From Flavobacteriaceae bacterium (GTDB lineage: Bacteria; Bacteroidota; Bacteroidia; Flavobacteriales; Flavobacteriaceae): a DNA stretch of 64,000 nt. The translations under genes and the position numbers were made by a program. Location: NCBI GenBank assembly GCA_021648755.1, contig JAKISG010000010.1:7017-71016 (forward strand). The letters run 5' to 3'. Of this stretch, positions 26,939 through 40,382 are shown one piece after another. Every line of letters begins with the position of its first letter. The stretch's first letter is position 1. The notes below the pieces were generated by a model, which was not told the DNA's origin, did not search any database, and saw only the letters and a list, made by a program, of their open reading frames with translations.

Positions 26939-27403
26939 ATGAGTAAAAAAATATACGTATTAGACGGCGCATTATTAGAATGTAACATGGGTTATAAACC
27001 CGCAAAATTATTAGTAACCGAAAACAAAAAAGTAAAAATACAAGGCAAATTTAAAGCAACCGATGCCGACATACAAGTACCACAAACCTTTGGTAAATGT
27101 AAACTAAAACCAACAAATAGCGGTCATTTACCCTGCGTACCAGGCTTACAAAAATGGACTAATACTAGTACAAAAGTAACCTTAGGCAAAAGTAAAAAGT
27201 TTTTGTTCGACTGCTCACAAACGATGTGCTCTACAGGCGGTCTAGTAAAAATAAAAGATCACGGACAAATAGATAGCATAGGTAGTATGCTAGAACAATT
27301 TAAAGAAATTGCCATGCTCATACCAGGAGCCATGCCAGGAGCCACCAACATACCAAAAGTAGTAGAACAATATTGGATGGATGAAGAGAGCAAGAAAAAA
27401 TAG
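26939..27403 (+). CDS. DUF4280 (PAAR-like) domain protein, probable spike-tip/delivery head of the downstream toxin
   Basis: 154 aa with no signal peptide. Pattern GALLECNMG...PAKL.V...V.I.GK..AT..D...P..FG.C...P....PC.P....W......V..G......DCS..MCSTGGLVKIKDHGQ matches the conserved Cys/Gly layout of DUF4280. The stop follows an A6 run, and the downstream frame is already open (see findings). Confidence 0.8.
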   Translation: MSKKIYVLDGALLECNMGYKPAKLLVTENKKVKIQGKFKATDADIQVPQTFGKCKLKPTNSGHLPCVPGLQKWTNTSTKVTLGKSKKFLFDCSQTMCSTGGLVKIKDHGQIDSIGSMLEQFKEIAMLIPGAMPGATNIPKVVEQYWMDEESKKK

Positions 27404-27441
27404 AAGAAGAAGAAAATAATAAAAATGTAAAAATATTTGTA

Positions 27442-29688
27442 ATGACCGAAAATATTGATGCAGGAGAAACACTAACTATTGAAATTGAAGAAAAAGAAGG
27501 TCAAGAATTTAACAAAGGAGAAAAAAAATTAACCTATACAAGCACAGTAAAAGCAAACGGTTCAAGTACACTAGATATAGAGATAAATAAAGACTGGCAA
27601 GAAGCCACAAATAGAACACTTGTATTAAAAAGAATACACACAGCAGAAATGACCTTTGAAGTTCACGAAGAACTAAAAATAGTTGACCCCAACGAAAAAA
27701 AAGTACTAGACGTCTATCTAGCCGAAAAAAAGATAAAATATGTAGATGAAGAAGATGGCGAATACACATACACCTTTAAAAACGATAAAAAGGCAGTAAA
27801 TAACCACGAAAAAAATGTGCTTTCCTCAGAAATATTTAGTGTAGTAAAAAAAACATTAGAAAGTTTAAATCAAAAACCAGCAACTGAATTTATAACCGAG
27901 GCATTAAAAACCAATAAAGAAGCAGGTAAAATTAAAGAAAGTTACAAAAAAGGCGAAACACTCACCTTTAAAGTATATAAACTAGAAAGGAAAAAAGAAG
28001 AACACTACCAAAAAATGAGTAGTGTAATTGGCGCCTCTATGGGCAACCAAATATATATAATAGCCAAAACAAAAAATTTAGAAGGCAAAAAAGTAAAGAT
28101 AAAGTTACATGAGAAAGAAGACGAGTTAAAACTACTAAAAGACAAAGACGCTATTTTGCCCGTATTAGTTTACGCAAAAAAAGAAGACAAAACAACCGAT
28201 ACCCAAGCCAGCGATTGGATAGAAATAGACATTAAAAAAGAAAAAGGAAAAAAAGAAACCGATAATGTCATACTAAGCCAAGGAGAAGAAGAAATAGAAG
28301 TAGGCATAAAAAAAATACAACTACGCCCAAAAACCGATAAAATGGCAAGCAAAGACGAAGAAGCCAGTAAAAGTTTTGAAGGATGGGCAGAGAAGTTGTA
28401 TATACGAGAAGATGAAACCGAAGCAGGAAAAAAAGCAAAAAAAGCAAAAGAAGAAGAAAAAACAATAACCCTAAATTTTGATAAAGATGCAATTAAAGAA
28501 AGTTTCCCTGAAAAAATAACATGGTTAAAAAGCAGTGAGATAGGTAAAGAAGAAATATACACCATTACAAAATACCTTAAAGGCGAAACTGAAGTTGACA
28601 AGAATAATATACGTTGGTCATTATATATACAAAGCAAAAAAAAGAATTACACCATTATAGACACCAAAACTAAAACTGATCTATACACGTATGCCAAAAC
28701 GGAACTCATTGATGGCAAAAATCAACTAACCATAATATTCGACAAAGCCCTAAAAGGTAAAAAAGTACAAATAGAACCCTTTAGAGAAGAAGCACCAAAA
28801 TTAAACACAAAAAATGATTATGTAAGTACAACGCTTATTAAAGAAAAAGCCACCCCAAAAATAACCAAACTAGACACTACCAAACTATGGTTACAAACCG
28901 AGTGTGATGATTGTAAAGAAAAGGAAAAAAAGAAAGAATTTTTAAAAGAGAATTATTTTAAATTAAAAACGCCAGATACTATTCATATTTATAGTGATGG
29001 GAAGATTAGTAAAACACCTCTAACATTATTAAAAAACATAAGATATGTTTATGTTGCTAGTGATGGTGAAGAGCATGATTTGGGTAAATATAATTTAATA
29101 GAAGCTCAAAAATGGAATTATGGTTCTTCAAGATATCATAGTGGATGGAAAAAAATCGTTACTATTGATAATAAAGGAAATGAAAAAGAAAAATATTTTG
29201 AATATGCTAAAGGAAAAGTTAAGTTAGTTAAATTCAAACTTCCTTTATCATATAATTATAATAATGTAAATATTAAATTAAAAGATAATTCAACAAGAGA
29301 ATACATAAATCCAGAAGCTTTTGCCTGTCTTATAGGAGCATTGGCAGAAGTTGGTTATGATGATATTACTTTAAACGGATTTACATCTAAAGACGGTACA
29401 GGAGCACCAAGTGTAACTCATTTTAATGGAATTGCAGGAGATTTTCGATATTTAAGAAAAGATAAAAAAATAGCCTCTCTCCATATTAATACAAGTCCAA
29501 ATCAACTTGATGTTGAACGACAAGAAAAGTTTATTGATGCTCTAGTAAAATTTGGCTGGAAAAATTTTTATAGTTATGATACAAAAATTGACAAGAAAGA
29601 TTTTATACTTAAAAAATCTACTCACCTTGCTAACCACCATCATCATCTACATTTAAGATATGAACAATTTAAACCAAATTATAAATAA
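27442..29688 (+). CDS. Polymorphic toxin: Lys/Glu-rich repeat-module N-region, conserved junction segment, and C-terminal LAS/M15-like zinc peptidase module (CT1)
   Basis: 748 aa with no signal peptide and no T9SS CTD. C-terminal motifs PSVTHFNGIAGD (H at 29419, D at 29440; SxHxxGxAxD type) and HLH (29644-29652). The frame is open upstream to 27385, so the true N-terminus is probably upstream or fused to the DUF4280 gene. Confidence 0.75.
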   Translation: MTENIDAGETLTIEIEEKEGQEFNKGEKKLTYTSTVKANGSSTLDIEINKDWQEATNRTLVLKRIHTAEMTFEVHEELKIVDPNEKKVLDVYLAEKKIKYVDEEDGEYTYTFKNDKKAVNNHEKNVLSSEIFSVVKKTLESLNQKPATEFITEALKTNKEAGKIKESYKKGETLTFKVYKLERKKEEHYQKMSSVIGASMGNQIYIIAKTKNLEGKKVKIKLHEKEDELKLLKDKDAILPVLVYAKKEDKTTDTQASDWIEIDIKKEKGKKETDNVILSQGEEEIEVGIKKIQLRPKTDKMASKDEEASKSFEGWAEKLYIREDETEAGKKAKKAKEEEKTITLNFDKDAIKESFPEKITWLKSSEIGKEEIYTITKYLKGETEVDKNNIRWSLYIQSKKKNYTIIDTKTKTDLYTYAKTELIDGKNQLTIIFDKALKGKKVQIEPFREEAPKLNTKNDYVSTTLIKEKATPKITKLDTTKLWLQTECDDCKEKEKKKEFLKENYFKLKTPDTIHIYSDGKISKTPLTLLKNIRYVYVASDGEEHDLGKYNLIEAQKWNYGSSRYHSGWKKIVTIDNKGNEKEKYFEYAKGKVKLVKFKLPLSYNYNNVNIKLKDNSTREYINPEAFACLIGALAEVGYDDITLNGFTSKDGTGAPSVTHFNGIAGDFRYLRKDKKIASLHINTSPNQLDVERQEKFIDALVKFGWKNFYSYDTKIDKKDFILKKSTHLANHHHHLHLRYEQFKPNYK
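28769..29059 (+). repeat. Junction repeat, copy 1 (inside the large toxin gene)
   Basis: 28801-29006 matches 30422-30627 at 205/206 nt by eye. The lead-in AAATAGAACC(C)TT(T)A is shared by all three copies. 28843-28894 and about 28912-29059 also match copy 3. Confidence 0.9.
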
Positions 29689-29695
29689 TGAAAAT

Positions 29696-30397
29696 ATGAA
29701 AAAAATAATTATATTGATATTTTTTGGGTATTTGTTTTTTTGTTGCAAACAAAAAGATAATTTAACATTAAATCAATCAAACATTAGTAAACAAAAAGAT
29801 AGTACAAAAGAATATTCTTTCTCACAAAAAAAAGATTCAACTATTTTTATCCCAGAGTTTGCTCTAATAAAACCAAAATACCAATCTAATTTTCTAAAAT
29901 TGGATAAAAAAAATATTGAAAAATATCAAAAAATTCAATTAAAAATAGGTAACTTTTCGGATTTTTTTTTAGGAAATACTGATGAAAATGATATTATTGG
30001 TCACCCTGATATAGATTATGATGGATTTACTTTATGGCATACTACATTTAAAGATAGAATTGAAATAGCTTTTTTTGCAAAAAAAATATTAAAATATTAT
30101 GGTTTTTTTATTGAGAAAGATAAATTATTATTAGTTACTGAAACGACTAGAAGAAATAATATTAAAACAACAGACTCTATATTTTTTGAAAACAATCATA
30201 TTCTTTTATGGAAAAATTCATCAAACAAATTTGTAACTAACCCTAATATAATAAAAGGAAAAGAAAACTATATACTAAGATTGATTAAAGAGATGAAAGA
30301 AATAGAAAATAATGAAATAGGATATATTGAAGAATACAACTACACAAAAGACTCATTATCATCTTTTGTAATAGCGAACTTAAAAAAGCATAAATAG
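29696..30397 (+). CDS. Lipoprotein, candidate cognate immunity protein for CT1
   Basis: MKKIIILIFFGYLFFCCKQ is a lipoprotein-type signal with Cys. It starts 7 nt after the toxin stop. I recognise no family. ATG 29696 preferred over 29660, which overlaps the toxin gene. Confidence 0.65.
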   Translation: MKKIIILIFFGYLFFCCKQKDNLTLNQSNISKQKDSTKEYSFSQKKDSTIFIPEFALIKPKYQSNFLKLDKKNIEKYQKIQLKIGNFSDFFLGNTDENDIIGHPDIDYDGFTLWHTTFKDRIEIAFFAKKILKYYGFFIEKDKLLLVTETTRRNNIKTTDSIFFENNHILLWKNSSNKFVTNPNIIKGKENYILRLIKEMKEIENNEIGYIEEYNYTKDSLSSFVIANLKKHK

Positions 30398-30627
30398 AAC
30401 CTTAGAGAGGTGAACCAGTTATTAAACACAAAAAATGATTATGTAAGTACAACGCTTATTAAAGAAAAAGCCACCCCAAAAATAACCAAACTAGACACTA
30501 CCAAACTATGGTTACAAACCGAGTGTGATGATTGTAAAGAAAACGAAAAAAAGAAAGAATTTTTAAAAGAGAATTATTTTAAATTAAAAACGCCAGATAC
30601 TATTCATATTTATAGTGATGGGAAGAT
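30392..30627 (+). repeat. Junction repeat, copy 2 (5' end of the orphan toxin ORF)
   Basis: See copy 1. The single mismatch is AAG/AAC, giving EKEKKK versus ENEKKK. Confidence 0.9.
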
Positions 30628-31393
30628 GGATAAAGTGAATTTTAAAAATCTTCTTTTTGGAAAAAAATTAAAATATATTTATGTAGATAAGGATGGTAAT
30701 CACCATAAGGTTTGTGAATGTGAACTATATGAAACTTGGAAAATGGGTAGTGGAAAATCAGATAGTACACTTATTCCTTCTGCCACAGAAAAGGCGAGTG
30801 CAACAGTAATAGATTATGTTGCAATGGGAGTATCTGGAGTAGATGCTCATAAGACTTGGGTACTTACAAATAATGACGTATATACCAAAGGAGAATTAAT
30901 AGCTGGATACACACACCTATATTATAAAGCTTCAACTGAAAAAGTAGTTATGGTTACTATACCTAGTAATCTTAATTATAGAAAGAATGATTTAAATATA
31001 AAATTTGAATTTAAAAGAACATTAAGAAAATTTAGTAGTCCTGAAATTTTTGCAGCTTTCATTGGAGTTCTCGCAGAATGCTCATATGTTGATGTAGTTT
31101 CTGAAGGCTCATCATATAGAAACGGAAGTAGTTACCCAAGTAAAACACATAATAATGGATTTGCAATAGATACTTGGTATTTTGGGCCAAACAGAAACTC
31201 AACAACAGGTAAAGTAAACTCATTAGATTTAACAAAACAACAAGACTTTATGGATGCATTTAAAAAATTTGGTTTTGATGATAGAATAAAAGGGTCAGAT
31301 AATAAATGTTCAAACTTAACGAACTATACTTTAAAAAATGGAAATCATAATGGGCACTTACATTGCGGCAAGTTAAATCCAAATTATAAATAA
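30410..31393 (+). CDS. Orphan toxin cassette: junction segment plus diverged LAS/M15-like peptidase module (CT2), lacking the N-terminal delivery region
   Basis: 327 aa from a GTG start 12 nt after the previous stop. The frame opens only after TAG 30395-30397. Motifs PSKTHNNGFAID (H 31148, D 31169) and HLH (31355-31363). It has the same C-terminal tail PNYK as CT1. Confidence 0.65.
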   Translation: MNQLLNTKNDYVSTTLIKEKATPKITKLDTTKLWLQTECDDCKENEKKKEFLKENYFKLKTPDTIHIYSDGKMDKVNFKNLLFGKKLKYIYVDKDGNHHKVCECELYETWKMGSGKSDSTLIPSATEKASATVIDYVAMGVSGVDAHKTWVLTNNDVYTKGELIAGYTHLYYKASTEKVVMVTIPSNLNYRKNDLNIKFEFKRTLRKFSSPEIFAAFIGVLAECSYVDVVSEGSSYRNGSSYPSKTHNNGFAIDTWYFGPNRNSTTGKVNSLDLTKQQDFMDAFKKFGFDDRIKGSDNKCSNLTNYTLKNGNHNGHLHCGKLNPNYK

Positions 31394-31401
31394 TTAAAAT
31401 T

Positions 31402-32400
31402 ATGTTAAAACTTATTTCTATTATACTAATTATTTTCACCTCTTGTAAGGAGATAGATAATATGCATTCAAAAAAAAATGAATTAAATAATCATATTGCA
31501 AATAAAGATACAAATATTTCTTATGAAAAAACAGCATTCTTTGATACAATAAAACAATATCCTTTGCCTTTTGGTAAAAAATTAGTACTAACAAATTTTC
31601 CAGAAAAATGGGAATACCCTTCTATTTATGAAGAGGTAGATGACAGGAGAAAAGGAAAATATGAAATTATACTAAATTCTTTAAACTCATATTTAGATAA
31701 ATTTATGTATAAAACTTCTTTAAAAATCAATAAAGAAAAATACTCTTATAATTATTTTATAAATTCTGCAAATAAATATTTTAACTATTATGAAGATTAT
31801 ACTTTCTATAATGTTAGATGGAAAATTGAAGAAGTAAAAAATGTTTCTATTGGAAAAATTAAGAATTTTGTGAAAAATATAGAAGTCATTATTACTAAGA
31901 ACTCAACAAGTTCTAACTATTTAAACATTGTTACAATAGATTCGAAAAGAAACATTATTGATGGTATTAACATTGGGTATTCAGAGAATGTTTTTGAATT
32001 CTCACATTCAGGAAAATATTACTTCATTGATAGAAATAGAATTATTCATCTAAAATCTTTTCTTTCGCTTGAAACGGAAACTCGATTTCAGCGTTATGAA
32101 AAATATCAAATCCTTTCAACAGGAAAAATAGTACGTTATTTTAATAAAAATTCAGGTCAATTCAGTAGTAAAGAAGAAAGCGGAAATATACAAAATCATA
32201 CAAAAGAAGGCATATGGATAGAAACTAAACCCAATATGTATGTTGAAGAACATACCTATGTTAAAGCCAAATACAAAAAAGGACTCCCTTTTGGTATTTG
32301 GAGATACTATAATTTAATAAATAACACTAAAAAAGGAGACAAACTTCTAATGACAGAAGAATACGATAAAAATGGTAAATTATTAAAAAAAATGTTTTAA
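31402..32400 (+). CDS. Lipoprotein, candidate immunity protein for CT2 (C-terminal MORN/YwqK-like repeats)
   Basis: MLKLISIILIIFTSCKE lipobox. Starts 8 nt after the CT2 stop. Unrelated to the first lipoprotein. The C-terminus EGIWIE...YKKGLPFGIWRYYN...EEYDKNGKLL resembles MORN-variant repeats of YwqK-type immunity proteins (tentative). Confidence 0.6.
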   Translation: MLKLISIILIIFTSCKEIDNMHSKKNELNNHIANKDTNISYEKTAFFDTIKQYPLPFGKKLVLTNFPEKWEYPSIYEEVDDRRKGKYEIILNSLNSYLDKFMYKTSLKINKEKYSYNYFINSANKYFNYYEDYTFYNVRWKIEEVKNVSIGKIKNFVKNIEVIITKNSTSSNYLNIVTIDSKRNIIDGINIGYSENVFEFSHSGKYYFIDRNRIIHLKSFLSLETETRFQRYEKYQILSTGKIVRYFNKNSGQFSSKEESGNIQNHTKEGIWIETKPNMYVEEHTYVKAKYKKGLPFGIWRYYNLINNTKKGDKLLMTEEYDKNGKLLKKMF

Positions 32401-32407
32401 AATAATA

Positions 32408-32736
32408 AAAATAGAACCCTTTAAAAAATAAAAACCAGATATTGACAACAAAAAAGACTATGTAAGAACAAGTATCATAACAGAAAAAGCCACCCCAAAA
32501 ATAACCAAACTAGACACTACCAAACTATGGTTACCTGTAAAGAAAGCGAAAAAAAGAAAGAATTTTTAAAAGATAATTATTTTAATTTGAGAACGCCAGA
32601 TACTATTCATATTTATAGTGATGGGAAAATTAGTAAAACACCTCTAACATTATTAAAAAATATAAGATATGTTTATGTTGCTAATTTTGATAAAGATATT
32701 TACGCTTTTTATGCACCTAAAATCTACAAATGTTAA
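32408..32736 (+). pseudogene. Degenerate third junction/CT1-type cassette remnant
   Basis: It has the lead-in AAATAGAACCCTTTA and a 52-nt exact match to copy 1 (32483-32534). A 17-nt to 1-nt replacement at 32535 shifts the frame, giving a stop at 32567-32569. Homology to the CT1 5' part (ISKTPLTLLKNIRYVYVA) ends at 32683, and there is no peptidase module. The ORF-track ORF 32527-32736 starts at an out-of-frame ATG. Confidence 0.65.
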
Positions 32737-39305: not shown

Positions 39306-40382
39306 ATATACACCGTAGTAGACATAGAAACAACAGGAGGAGAATTCAATGAAGAAGGAATTACTGAAATTGCTATCTTTAAATTTGATGGTAATAATGT
39401 CATTGATACATTTATTAGTTTAATTAATCCAGAAAAAGAAATCCAACCTTTTGTAGTTAACCTAACGGGTATTAATAATAAAATGTTAATCAACGCACCC
39501 AAATTTTATGAAGTTGCTAAACGGATTCTTGAAATTACTGAAAACACTATTTTAATAGCTCACAATGCTAGTTTTGATTATCGAGTAATACAGACAGAAT
39601 TTAGTCGCTTAGGTTATAATTTTAAAAGAGAGACACTTTGTACTGTACAGTTGAGTAAAAAAATATTCCCTAACTTACCCAAATATAAATTAGGCGCCCT
39701 TTGTCACTCTTTAGGAATACCAATTTATAATAGACATAGAGCAGAAGGAGATGCATTTGCAACAGTAAAACTTTTTGAACAGTTATTACATAAAGATGTT
39801 GCTAAAGAAATTATTATTAAAGCCATAAAACCAATTAGCACAAAACTATCTGATAGGTTATTACAAATTTTAACAGATTTACCATCTAAAACAGGCTTAT
39901 TTTATTTTTACAATAACGAAGGTAAAATTTTATATATTAATAAAAGTAAAAACATAAAAAAAACAATAAATAACCTGTTTTTAAGAGAAGTAAAAAAGAT
40001 TAAAAATTTAGTTTCTAAAACAGAAAACATAAGTTTTGATTTATTAGGTAATGATTTAATGTGTGATTTAAAATTACATAAAGAATTAAAATTACACCAA
40101 CCAAGATACAACCAAAATCGAAAACAAAAACTGAATCTTAACAATTTTAGTAATGCGAACATGCTTATTATTGATAATGGAAGGCATAATGCCGAACAAT
40201 CTGTAATATTGATAGAAAACAATACATATATTGGCAATACTTTCGTAGATTTAAACTACCAAATAAATAATATTAAAATTTTACGTAGCTTGGTAAACTT
40301 AGAAATTAACGATAATCATAATAATTTTTTAATTAAAAATTACTTACAAAAAAATAAAGTAAAAAGAATAATCCGTTTTTAA
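39306..40382 (+). CDS. DnaQ-like 3'-5' exonuclease fused to a GIY-YIG-like domain (start codon unresolved)
   Basis: The frame is open from 39300 and encodes YTVVDIETTGG (ExoI), HNASFDY (ExoII) and HRAEGDA (ExoIII), then GLFYFYNNEGKILYINKSKNIKK (GIY-YIG-like). The first in-frame ATG/GTG/TTG is 39483, downstream of ExoI. 39306 is an ATA codon. Confidence 0.65.
   Translation: MYTVVDIETTGGEFNEEGITEIAIFKFDGNNVIDTFISLINPEKEIQPFVVNLTGINNKMLINAPKFYEVAKRILEITENTILIAHNASFDYRVIQTEFSRLGYNFKRETLCTVQLSKKIFPNLPKYKLGALCHSLGIPIYNRHRAEGDAFATVKLFEQLLHKDVAKEIIIKAIKPISTKLSDRLLQILTDLPSKTGLFYFYNNEGKILYINKSKNIKKTINNLFLREVKKIKNLVSKTENISFDLLGNDLMCDLKLHKELKLHQPRYNQNRKQKLNLNNFSNANMLIIDNGRHNAEQSVILIENNTYIGNTFVDLNYQINNIKILRSLVNLEINDNHNNFLIKNYLQKNKVKRIIRF

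What the first reader, a model, noticed from the sequence alone, without database searches (positions are those of the whole stretch)
27385..27444. DUF4280 gene and toxin gene look like one reading frame split at an A6 run (indel, phase switch or -1 frameshift)
The DUF4280 ORF ends ...GAG AGC AAG AAA AAA TAG, with the A6 run at 27395-27400 and the stop at 27401-27403. The frame of the downstream toxin ORF is already open from 27385. Read from 27400 in that frame, it gives IEEEENNKNVKIFV before the annotated Met (27442). That upstream stretch completes a sequence module: NVKIFVMTENIDAGETLTIEIEEKEG. The module recurs later in the same protein as NQIYIIAKTKNLEGKKVKIKLHEKED (aa 202-227) and NQLTIIFDKALKGKKVQIEPFREE (aa 427-450). 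So coding information appears to extend upstream of the annotated ATG. One extra A (A7), or a -1 slip of tRNA-Lys on AAA AAA next to the stop codon, would produce a single ~916-aa PAAR-like-repeat-toxin polypeptide. That is the usual architecture of specialised PAAR effectors. Possible explanations are a homopolymer sequencing error, a real inactivating or phase-variable indel, or programmed or transcriptional slippage.
Basis: seen in the sequence. Interest (0 to 1): 0.65.

Follow-up and report, generated by a model that had tools for sequence, protein, structure and literature searches.

The report
Frameshifted, fused PAAR-like toxin gene
A bacterial "spike-tip" gene and the toxin gene behind it were fused into one long gene by a 20-base deletion, and that gene is now broken by one missing A in a run of A's; this is most likely an ordinary mutation or a sequencing slip, not a special decoding trick.

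Summary
A6 (27395-27400) is followed by TAG (27401-03), and the toxin frame is open from 27385. Homology settles the core claim: about 90 DUF4280 homologues read gaplessly through this point, and one added A restores their register exactly (…YWMDEESKKK|IEEEENNKNVKIFVMTEN…). The annotated Met169 is an ancestral internal residue in the middle of a predicted beta-strand of an Ig-like module.

In 24 related loci the DUF4280+module gene (222-229 aa) ends in a stop codon. A separate ATG then opens the cargo toxin gene −4 to +14 nt later. The window has lost both. Against its closest relative (L039, 72.6% nt identity) a clean 20-nt gap removes the TAG and the ATG, and this fuses module and toxin in frame. 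One independent natural fusion exists (P0026, 1270 aa).

So this is one 916-codon PAAR-like specialised effector gene of a Bacteroidota T6SS, split by a 1-nt indel. The site is not conserved as slippery, no stimulatory RNA structure follows it, and no other gene in the window is broken. No reads cover it.

Best reading: a real, recent frameshift (~0.6). Rivals: a homopolymer sequencing error (~0.27), recoding or phase variation (~0.07), and a selected two-gene arrangement (~0.06). Interest is modest.

The parts
26939..27403 (+). 5' part of the gene: DUF4280 (PAAR-like) domain, linker helix and first strand of the Ig-like module. As it stands it is a 154-codon ORF ending in TAG.
   Evidence: ORF list. 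Pfam PF14107 E 9e-19, residues 7-110. Four invariant Cys (C15, C54, C66, C97) in alignments A1, A2 and A4. Profile hit to PDB 9jg8_B (BtpeA), E 4.3e-13.
27395..27400 (+). A6 run, the site of the 1-nt deficit (inferred ancestral A7: AAG AAA AAA ATA = K K K I).
   Evidence: Sequence. Homologues read [EK]-[KR]-[IV]-[DN] in frame here. L004 has an in-frame A9, and L021, L023, L027, L028 and L038 an in-frame A6. YWM..KIFV is 63 nt in L039 and 62 nt in the window.
27401..27403 (+). TAG stop created by the frame break. It has no counterpart in any homologue.
27400..27441 (+). Fourteen codons (IEEEENNKNVKIFV) in the -1 frame between the stop and the annotated ATG. They are homologous to the module loop and the first half of strand 2.
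   Evidence: NKN[AV]KIFV is conserved in the closest relatives P0035 and P0036. This segment is 57% identical to L039 at the amino-acid level, the same as the rest of the module.
27356..27597 (+). Ig-like beta module (fusion residues ~140-220), interrupted by the frameshift between strand 1 and strand 2.
   Evidence: Two AF2 models give the same strands: 140-147, 164-171, 178-185, 197-203, 209-214. Module pLDDT is 61-71 in model 2. Foldseek hits Ig-like adhesin repeats. phmmer hits Big_1, Big_13 and HYR repeat arrays.
27442..27444 (+). Annotated ATG (Met169). It is an internal residue of the module, not a conserved start.
   Evidence: It aligns with L, R, K or Q in most homologues and with M in the closest ones (FVMTEN in P0035, P0036, P0026, P0063). 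It lies inside predicted strand 164-171.
27598..27609 (+). Fusion junction CAAGAAGCCACA (Q221-E-A-T224). It replaces the tail, stop codon, spacer and ATG that separate the two genes in relatives.
   Evidence: All 23 genome loci plus L039 have stop, then -4 to +14 nt, then ATG here. Pairwise alignment with L039 shows one clean 20-nt gap that removes TAG and ATG.
27610..29001 (+). Cargo-effector N-terminal region. It begins with the conserved leader motif (here NRTLVLKRIHTAEMTF) and continues with ~450 residues shared with toxins that carry other C-terminal domains.
   Evidence: BLAST and tblastn against P0002-P0021 and the loci. N-terminal motif alignment. Alignment A3.
29002..29688 (+). C-terminal toxin domain (~228 aa). 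By motif it is a LAS-type zinc peptidase (S..H.NG...D and H..HLH invariant). This is an inference, not a database match.
   Evidence: Alignment A5 invariants. No Pfam or PDB sequence hit. Homologues carry M23 or GH19 domains in the same position.
28758..29006 (+). Recombination handle shared with the downstream orphan cassettes.
   Evidence: blastn: 95% identity to 30381-30627 and 83.5% identity to 32398-32696.
29660..30397 (+). Probable cognate immunity gene. It overlaps the toxin's 3' end, and its N-terminus looks like a lipoprotein signal (read by eye).
   Evidence: ORF list. No family hit. Same position as the 205-231-aa genes after the toxin homologues.
30381..32736 (+). Orphan toxin C-terminal cassette (30410-31393) with a putative immunity gene (31402-32400), then a further truncated cassette remnant (32398-32736).
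   Evidence: ORFs. DNA repeats. The orphan's C-terminal domain is 29% identical to the main toxin's and carries the same invariant H/D motifs.

Best explanation
The two ORFs are the pieces of one 916-codon gene for a specialised PAAR-like effector of a Bacteroidota type VI secretion system. Its parts, in order, are an N-terminal DUF4280 spike-tip domain, a short helix, an Ig-like module, a ~450-residue cargo region and a C-terminal cell-wall-targeting toxin domain. An immunity gene and orphan toxin cassettes follow it.

Shown: two changes set this locus apart from every relative examined.
1. A 20-nt deletion removed the stop codon of the DUF4280+module gene and the ATG of the cargo toxin gene, joining them in frame.
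2. One A is missing from an inferred A7 tract 68 codons upstream. This creates TAG at 27401 and moves the rest of the gene into the -1 frame.

Inferred:
- The missing A is a real and evolutionarily recent, unprogrammed mutation.
- As encoded, the cell would make a 154-aa DUF4280 protein that retains the whole PAAR-like domain.
- If translation restarts at Met169, 38 nt downstream, it would also make a 748-aa toxin that begins inside a beta-strand and lacks both a covalent link to the tip and an intact docking module. The effector would then be disabled or poorly loaded.
- A small fraction of full-length product from unprogrammed slippage on AAA AAA next to the stop is possible but not needed.
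For: - One gene: the ~510-aa and 222-230-aa homologues align gaplessly across residue 154/155.
- In-frame reading elsewhere: 31 of 31 loci with the YWMD motif read the site in frame, some through A6 to A9 runs.
- Register: adding one A reproduces the consensus K-I register. YWM..KIFV is 63 nt in L039 and 62 nt in the window.
- Domain integrity: the break falls in a loop inside a predicted Ig-like domain, and Met169 lies mid-strand.
- Fusion: 23 genome loci plus L039 all have stop, a short spacer and ATG where the window has 12 in-frame nt. The alignment with L039 shows a single 20-nt gap covering TAG and ATG, and 20 nt is exactly what puts the toxin (+2 frame in L039) into the DUF4280 frame.
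- Precedent: P0026 (Ascidiimonas, 1270 aa) is a natural fusion, and BtpeA is a single-chain DUF4280 effector sitting on VgrG (PDB 9jg8).
- Recent: the 14 codons between the stop and the ATG are as conserved as the rest of the module, and the 748-codon toxin frame is intact over its full length against P0002 despite 26 A/T runs of 6 or more.
- Real rather than error: 55 ORFs with 332 A/T runs of 6 or more stay open. Every adjacent ORF pair and large ORF tested is a complete gene.
- Not programmed: K-K is not conserved at the site and no RNA structure follows it (-5.3 kcal/mol, z -1.3).
Against: - No sequencing reads of this organism could be found, so A6 versus A7 is unverified.
- The source record and its sequencing technology are unknown.
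- The good conservation after the break fits a sequencing error equally well.
- There are no expression or protein data.
- The structural argument rests on a medium-confidence model (mean pLDDT 57).
- AAA AAA followed by a stop codon is a known type of slippage-prone context (my own knowledge), so some read-through product cannot be excluded.
Confidence: 0.6

Rival explanations
1. Homopolymer sequencing or assembly error. The organism really has A7 and an intact 916-codon fused gene, and the stop codon is an artefact.
For: The defect is exactly one base in a homopolymer, and restoring it gives perfect collinearity with all homologues. There is no decay after the break and the toxin frame is fully intact. 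The cargo gene has no start codon of its own, so an intact fusion is the simplest functional state.
Against: The rest of the window shows no other broken gene, although 332 A/T runs of 6 or more lie inside open ORFs and about 190 runs of 7 or more occur overall. That argues for an accurate assembly, in which an A7-to-A6 miscall is rare. Real frameshifts in accessory toxin loci are common (general knowledge).
Confidence: 0.27
2. Recoding or phase variation. The A-run next to the stop is used to produce two forms, either by ribosomal -1 or transcriptional slippage or by reversible A6/A7 length changes. One form is a free PAAR-like cap plus toxin, and the other is the covalently fused effector.
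For: AAA AAA immediately before a stop allows perfect re-pairing of tRNA-Lys in the -1 frame (sequence; slippage at such sites is my own knowledge). Both products are plausible proteins: natural standalone DUF4280 genes of 135-142 aa exist, and so do natural fusions.
Against: The slippery sequence is unique to this locus, and homologues have varied codons here and read in frame. No downstream stimulatory structure is present. A6 is short for efficient transcriptional slippage or high-rate phase variation (general knowledge), and 145 other A6 runs lie in the same 64 kb. The split cuts an Ig-like domain rather than a domain boundary.
Confidence: 0.07
3. A selected, stable re-partition into two genes. 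The gene boundary has moved from after the module to before it, giving a 154-aa PAAR-like cap and a 748-aa module+toxin made from Met169. Both work.
For: The 154-aa product keeps the whole region found in natural 135-142-aa standalone DUF4280 proteins. An ATG lies 38 nt after the stop in an A/T-rich context. The near-invariant Arg of the cargo leader motif is replaced (EMTF for GR[ST]F), which hints at altered constraints.
Against: Met169 is an inherited internal residue in mid-strand, so the 748-aa product would start with a truncated domain, and the 154-aa product would carry an orphan strand 1. No relative shares this arrangement among about 90 homologues or in 1.84 billion representative proteins. 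The untranslated 14 codons are still conserved.
Confidence: 0.06

Closest known systems
Bacteroides fragilis T6SS cargo complex BtpeA-BtaeB-BtapC on VgrG (PDB 9jg8/9jg9; also Pte3-Ate3-Bte3, PMC13402684)
   Same: A DUF4280 PAAR-like tip protein loads a cognate toxin onto VgrG in a Bacteroidota T6SS. BtpeA is itself a single chain of DUF4280 plus a toxin. The window's DUF4280 matches BtpeA by fold (E 5.7e-7) and by profile (E 4.3e-13). Relatives with the order DUF4280 protein (510 aa), 217-aa gene, toxin next to VgrG, Tle1 and DUF2931 genes resemble that three-part set.
   Different: Only the DUF4280 domain is demonstrably homologous. The window has an Ig-like module and a cargo region not matched to BtpeA, and no adaptor gene. 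It sits in an orphan island without VgrG or other T6SS genes in 64 kb. It is also frameshifted.
DUF4280 / IglG family of PAAR-like proteins (Rigard et al. 2016, PMC5014421)
   Same: Pfam PF14107 hit above the curated threshold, and four invariant cysteines.
   Different: IglG is a small stand-alone protein with its own N-terminal extension. Here the domain is the head of a long modular effector.
Specialised (evolved) PAAR effectors: a PAAR domain fused to a C-terminal toxin
   Same: The restored 916-aa product has that layout. Natural single-chain relatives exist: P0026 (1270 aa) and P0034 (1145 aa).
   Different: In this family the fused state is the exception, with 24 loci holding two genes against 1 other fusion. 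Here it arose by a recognisable 20-nt deletion.
Polymorphic toxin loci with orphan C-terminal cassettes (Rhs, CdiA)
   Same: A conserved handle (28758-29006) is repeated at 95% and 83.5% identity in front of downstream promoterless toxin-tip plus immunity cassettes.
   Different: No Rhs/YD or CdiA repeats are present, and the carrier is a DUF4280-linked T6SS cargo protein.
Programmed -1 frameshifting or transcriptional slippage genes (dnaX, IS3-family transposases)
   Same: A lysine-codon A-run where a -1 shift fuses two ORFs.
   Different: The site is not conserved in homologues, has no stimulatory structure and is only A6. The defining features are not met.

Membership tests
DUF4280 PAAR-like T6SS tip proteins | Match to Pfam PF14107 above the gathering score | tested here: met
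   68.5 bits against a cut-off of 26.3, E 9e-19, profile positions 1-109 of 109.
DUF4280 PAAR-like T6SS tip proteins | Four conserved cysteines (essential in IglG according to PMC5014421, as cited in PMC13402684) | tested here: met
   C15, C54, C66 and C97 are invariant in alignments of 8, 27 and 62 sequences.
DUF4280 PAAR-like T6SS tip proteins | Fold like a solved VgrG-bound PAAR-like protein | tested here: met
   Foldseek top hit 9jg8_B, E 5.7e-7, probability 1.0. Profile hit E 4.3e-13. Model pLDDT is about 70-78 over this domain.
DUF4280 PAAR-like T6SS tip proteins | Genomic association with VgrG or T6SS genes | tested here: inconclusive
   No T6SS gene was found among the ORFs tested in the 64-kb window. 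Homologues lie next to VgrG, TssD, Tle1-like and DUF2931 genes. The rest of this genome is not available.
Specialised PAAR(-like) effector (single polypeptide) | Tip domain and toxin domain in one uninterrupted ORF | tested here: not met
   As sequenced, a TAG at 27401 separates them. The feature is met only after adding one A.
Two-gene DUF4280+module / cargo effector pair (marine Flavobacteriaceae; defined here) | Stop codon after ..(K/E)(D/E)W.. and a separate cargo ATG within -4 to +14 nt | tested here: not met
   The window has 12 in-frame nt with no stop and no ATG. All 23 genome loci and L039 have them.
Two-gene DUF4280+module / cargo effector pair (marine Flavobacteriaceae; defined here) | Cargo N-terminal leader motif ..R.L.L.[IV]E..[GED]R[ST]F | tested here: inconclusive
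   NRTLVLKRIH is present, but the near-invariant Arg (43 of 45 sequences) is Met in the window (AEMTF).
Programmed -1 ribosomal frameshift site | Slippery heptamer X XXY YYZ in the 0 frame | tested here: inconclusive
   The site is G AAA AAA. The A-site tRNA re-pairs perfectly and the P-site tRNA would face GAA. Alternatively the P-site tRNA alone could slip, with TAG in the A site. This is permissive but not canonical.
Programmed -1 ribosomal frameshift site | Downstream stimulatory RNA structure | tested here: not met
   MFE -5.3 kcal/mol and z -1.3 over 27401-27500. The only hairpin starts 25 nt after the site.
Programmed -1 ribosomal frameshift site | Conservation of the slippery site and two-frame organisation in homologues | tested here: not met
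   In 31 of 31 loci the site is in frame, and the codons there vary.
Phase-variable (contingency) homopolymer | Tract-length heterogeneity within or between populations | not testable with these tools
   No run holds this locus, and no conspecific sequence was found.
LAS-type zinc peptidase toxin domain | H-x(3-6)-D and H-x-H metal-binding motifs and the matching fold | tested here: inconclusive
   S..H.NG...D and H..HLH are invariant across 10 diverged homologues, but there is no Pfam or PDB sequence match. The fold was not modelled.
Polymorphic toxin locus with orphan cassettes | Repeated homology handle preceding alternative toxin-tip and immunity pairs | tested here: met
   28758-29006 matches 30381-30627 (95%) and 32398-32696 (83.5%). 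The orphan ORF is followed by its own putative immunity ORF.

The most novel reading that the evidence does not exclude
The A-run is a working switch. Reversible A6/A7 changes, or low-level slippage on AAA AAA beside the stop, would let the cell alternate between a free PAAR-like cap that can serve other cargo and a covalently toxin-loaded tip.

A related structural idea applies to the two-gene relatives. The five-strand Ig-like module of the tip protein may be completed by the conserved N-terminal strands of the cargo (RxLxLxIEAEGRTF), a donor-strand type of docking. That would explain why in-frame fusions arise and are tolerated.
Probability: 0.07. Interest if true: 0.6.

Novelty: new member of a known kind. 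Interest (0 to 1): 0.3.

Why it matters
The finding matters mainly for annotation. The 154-aa "DUF4280 protein" and the 748-aa "hypothetical protein" should be read as one disrupted gene for a PAAR-like specialised effector, and the annotated start of the toxin is not a real conserved start.

It also gives a clean example of how T6SS effectors change architecture. A 20-nt deletion turns a tip-plus-cargo gene pair into a single-chain effector, and this happened independently at least twice in Flavobacteriaceae.

The survey brings out a widespread and apparently undescribed gene pair: DUF4280+Ig-like module, then a cargo gene with a conserved ~20-residue leader. It occurs in about 12 genera, and its loading mechanism could be tested.

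The frameshift itself is an ordinary kind of lesion.

Tried and rejected
- **Reads:** two searches for public runs. The first found none, and the second found one metagenome (X1) holding 6% of the sampled words. Its contigs do not cover the locus, only short low-complexity matches near the A-run.
- **Source record:** neither window protein is on record for contig look-up.
- **Closer relatives in JGI metagenome contigs:** 263 pattern matches, none of them a relative.
- **First AF2 model** from 8 sequences: unusable, pLDDT 34.
- **Toxin C-terminal domain:** no hit in Pfam, NCBIfam or PDB with the single sequence or the profile. The only 'hit' was a His-tag artefact.
- **Internal repeat claim:** only marginal scores.
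- **Second broken gene:** the suspected case (RNase_T ORF at 39483) is not a frameshift. The missing N-terminal motif is in the same frame behind a non-canonical ATA.
- **TseV effectors** were considered as DUF4280 analogues and rejected, because they carry DUF4150.
- **Programmed frameshifting** was rejected on lack of site conservation and lack of RNA structure.
Full report
**1.

Read directly, the DUF4280 ORF (26939-27403, 154 codons) ends GAG AGC AAG AAA AAA TAG. A6 lies at 27395-27400 and TAG at 27401-03. In the frame of the next ORF a TGA lies at 27382-84, so that frame is open from 27385. From 27400 it reads IEEEENNKNVKIFV before the ATG at 27442. Pfam confirms DUF4280 (E 9e-19). The A-run itself is unremarkable: the window is 28% G+C and contains 145 A6 and 82 A7 runs.

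**2. Homology shows that coding continues across the stop**

I searched with the conceptual 916-aa fusion and located the hits on it. This gave two classes.
- DUF4280 proteins of ~510 aa align without gaps to fusion residues 1-214, straight through the 154/155 junction, at 57-61% identity.
- Toxins of ~690 aa begin (their residues 4-8) at fusion residue ~222-233.

The alignment reads, for example, YWMDEESKKK|IEEEENNKNVKIFVMTENIDAGETL in the window against YWMDAEGKEK IDKKNFGEKASMYVLTENMDAGETV in P0022.

A second search added about 61 proteins of 222-230 aa, all collinear to residue ~220. In all 31 fetched loci with the YWMD motif the site is read in frame as [EK]-[KR]-[IV]-[DN]. Some read it through long A-runs (L004: GAA AAA AAA ATA, A9). 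Adding one A to the window gives AAG AAA AAA ATA = K-K-K-I, exactly that register. In the closest relative (L039, 72.6% nt identity over 26939-28899) YWM..KIFV spans 63 nt, against 62 in the window. The annotated Met169 aligns with L, R, K or Q in most homologues and with an internal M (FVMTEN) in the nearest ones.

**3.

Relatives show two layouts.
- Next to VgrG, Tle1-like and DUF2931 genes: DUF4280 protein (~510 aa), a 217-aa gene, the toxin (~690 aa), then a small downstream gene.
- In 23 genome loci from about 12 genera: a short DUF4280+module gene (222-229 aa) ending ..(K/E)(D/E)W.. and a stop (18 TAA, 3 TAG, 2 TGA). A separate ATG follows −4 to +14 nt later. It opens a cargo gene of 263-1089 aa with the N-terminal motif M..R.R.L.L.IEAEGR[ST]F.

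L039 is of the second kind..GAC TGG AAA GAA ACA AAA AAT AAT GAA TAG ct ATG GCA AAT AGA ACA... The window reads GAC TGG CAA GAA GCC ACA AAT AGA ACA, with no stop and no ATG. The pairwise alignment shows one clean 20-nt gap covering both. In L039 the cargo gene is in frame +2 relative to the DUF4280 gene, so a 20-nt deletion places it in frame 0. The junction event alone therefore makes an in-frame fusion, and the missing A then shifts module and toxin together into the −1 frame.

An independent natural fusion exists: P0026 (1270 aa, Ascidiimonas meishanensis) reads ..EEDWNKEK-ITSYNI-GSRTRKLSLQIEAEGRFFDF... An exhaustive search of 1.84 billion representative proteins found no protein spanning this module and this cargo.

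**4. Structure**

A model from 62 sequences (mean pLDDT 57; 70-78 over DUF4280 and 61-71 over the module) and a poorer first model agree on these elements:
- strands 140-147, 164-171, 178-185, 197-203 and 209-214
- a short helix at 218-221
- a further strand at 228-235 formed by the cargo leader (low confidence)

The frameshift site lies in the loop between strands 1 and 2, and Met169 lies inside strand 2. The split therefore cuts a domain.

Foldseek's top hit is 9jg8_B, BtpeA of the B. fragilis BtpeA-BtaeB-BtapC cargo complex on VgrG (E 5.7e-7). The profile search gives the same chain at E 4.3e-13 over the DUF4280 domain. The module resembles Ig-like adhesin repeats. Published work in Bacteroidota describes cognate PAAR-like tip proteins and adaptors that load specific effectors (PMC13402684).

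**5. The toxin and its surroundings**

The first ~450 residues of the cargo are shared with homologues that carry M23 or GH19 domains, or the same C-terminal domain as here. This C-terminal domain has no Pfam or PDB match. It does have invariant S..H.NG...D and H..HLH motifs across 10 diverged homologues. From these I infer a LAS-type zinc peptidase acting on the cell wall.

The toxin frame is intact over its full length against P0002. A 250-nt handle (28758-29006) recurs at 95% and 83.5% identity in front of an orphan toxin tip with its own putative immunity gene, and again in front of a truncated remnant. The island lies between apaG and truA-like housekeeping genes, and no T6SS core gene was found among the ORFs tested.

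**6. Cause of the break**

- *Programmed frameshifting is not supported.* The slippery sequence is unique to this locus, the RNA downstream is unstructured (−5.3 kcal/mol, z −1.3), and A6 is short for transcriptional slippage (general knowledge).
- *The break is young or unreal.* The 14 codons between the stop and the ATG are as conserved as the rest of the module (57% aa identity), and the long toxin frame is undamaged.
- *Error versus mutation cannot be settled.* No reads cover the site. The window otherwise looks accurate: 55 ORFs, 88% coding, 332 A/T runs of 6 or more inside open ORFs. All adjacent ORF pairs and large ORFs tested are complete genes, and one suspected second break proved to be a start-codon matter.

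I therefore favour a real recent 1-nt deletion (about 0.6) over a homopolymer miscall (about 0.27). Small weights go to recoding or phase variation (0.07) and to a selected re-partition into two genes (0.06).

**7. Verdict**

The "single polypeptide" is not the family norm, however. It is the product of a lineage-specific 20-nt fusion event, and the evidence drawn from internal repeats is weak.

The locus is a new member of a known kind: a DUF4280 PAAR-like specialised T6SS effector in a polymorphic toxin island, carrying an ordinary frameshift lesion. The more interesting by-products are the fusion mechanism and the widespread gene pair of DUF4280+Ig-module followed by leader-bearing cargo.

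Noticed in passing
L004-L031 and L039 (e.g. L039:2766-3500; L014:7001-7720): A conserved gene pair occurs in about 12 genera of marine Flavobacteriaceae. A DUF4280+Ig-like module gene (222-229 aa) is followed within -4 to +14 nt by cargo genes of very different length and C-terminal domain. All the cargo genes start with the motif M..R.R.L.L.IEAEGR[ST]F. The low-confidence model places that leader as an extra strand after the module, which suggests docking by strand complementation.
   Followed up: partly
L032:7001-10813 (P0026, Ascidiimonas meishanensis W6): An independent natural in-frame fusion of a DUF4280+module gene with its cargo (VasX_N-type, 1270 aa). The former stop and spacer are now read as ITSYNI; compare L023, L024 and L026.
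   Followed up: partly
window 27634-27648 (fusion residues T233-F237, HTAEMTF): The near-invariant Arg of the cargo leader motif ([GED]R[ST]F in 43 of 45 sequences, including the closest relative's AAGRTF) is Met in the window, and the preceding Gly is Glu. This may reflect relaxed constraint after covalent fusion, or early decay.
   Followed up: partly
window 28758-29006, 30381-30627, 32398-32696: A repeated handle (95% and 83.5% identity) lies in front of an orphan toxin C-terminal cassette (30410-31393) with its own putative immunity gene (31402-32400), and in front of a truncated third copy (ORF 32527-32736). This is a toxin-tip swapping arrangement like Rhs/CdiA orphan modules.
   Followed up: partly
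window 29002-29685 and 30410-31390: The toxin C-terminal domain family has no Pfam or PDB match. It has invariant S..H.NG...D and H..HLH motifs suggestive of a LAS-type zinc peptidase. It also occurs at the C-terminus of ~1065-aa GH19 proteins of Chryseobacterium (P0030-P0033).
   Followed up: partly
L001:5720-9997; L002:6001-10262: Relatives with the order DUF4280 protein (~510 aa, S/T-rich linker, conserved C-terminal domain ..FDTFGAGWEDGGADG..), a 217-aa gene, then the toxin, next to VgrG, Tle1-like and DUF2931 genes. This order recalls the BtpeA-BtapC-BtaeB set. Whether the 217-aa protein is an adaptor or an immunity protein was not examined.
   Followed up: no
window 39306-40382: A DEDDh exonuclease (RNase_T) gene has its catalytic N-terminal motif (YTVVDIETTGG) upstream of the first ATG/GTG/TTG in the same frame. 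ATA at 39306 sits where the start Met is expected, so this is a non-canonical or mutated start rather than a frameshift.
   Followed up: partly
L004:7001-7675: At the site homologous to the window's A6, a Dokdonia MAG has an in-frame A9 run (GAA AAA AAA ATA). This position is recurrently A-rich in the family and so is prone to indels.
   Followed up: no
window 26939-27403: The 154-aa DUF4280 ORF did not appear among the hits of either protein search, although the 748-aa ORF of the same window did (P0001). The source may not have called it as a gene, or may have marked it as a pseudogene.
   Followed up: no
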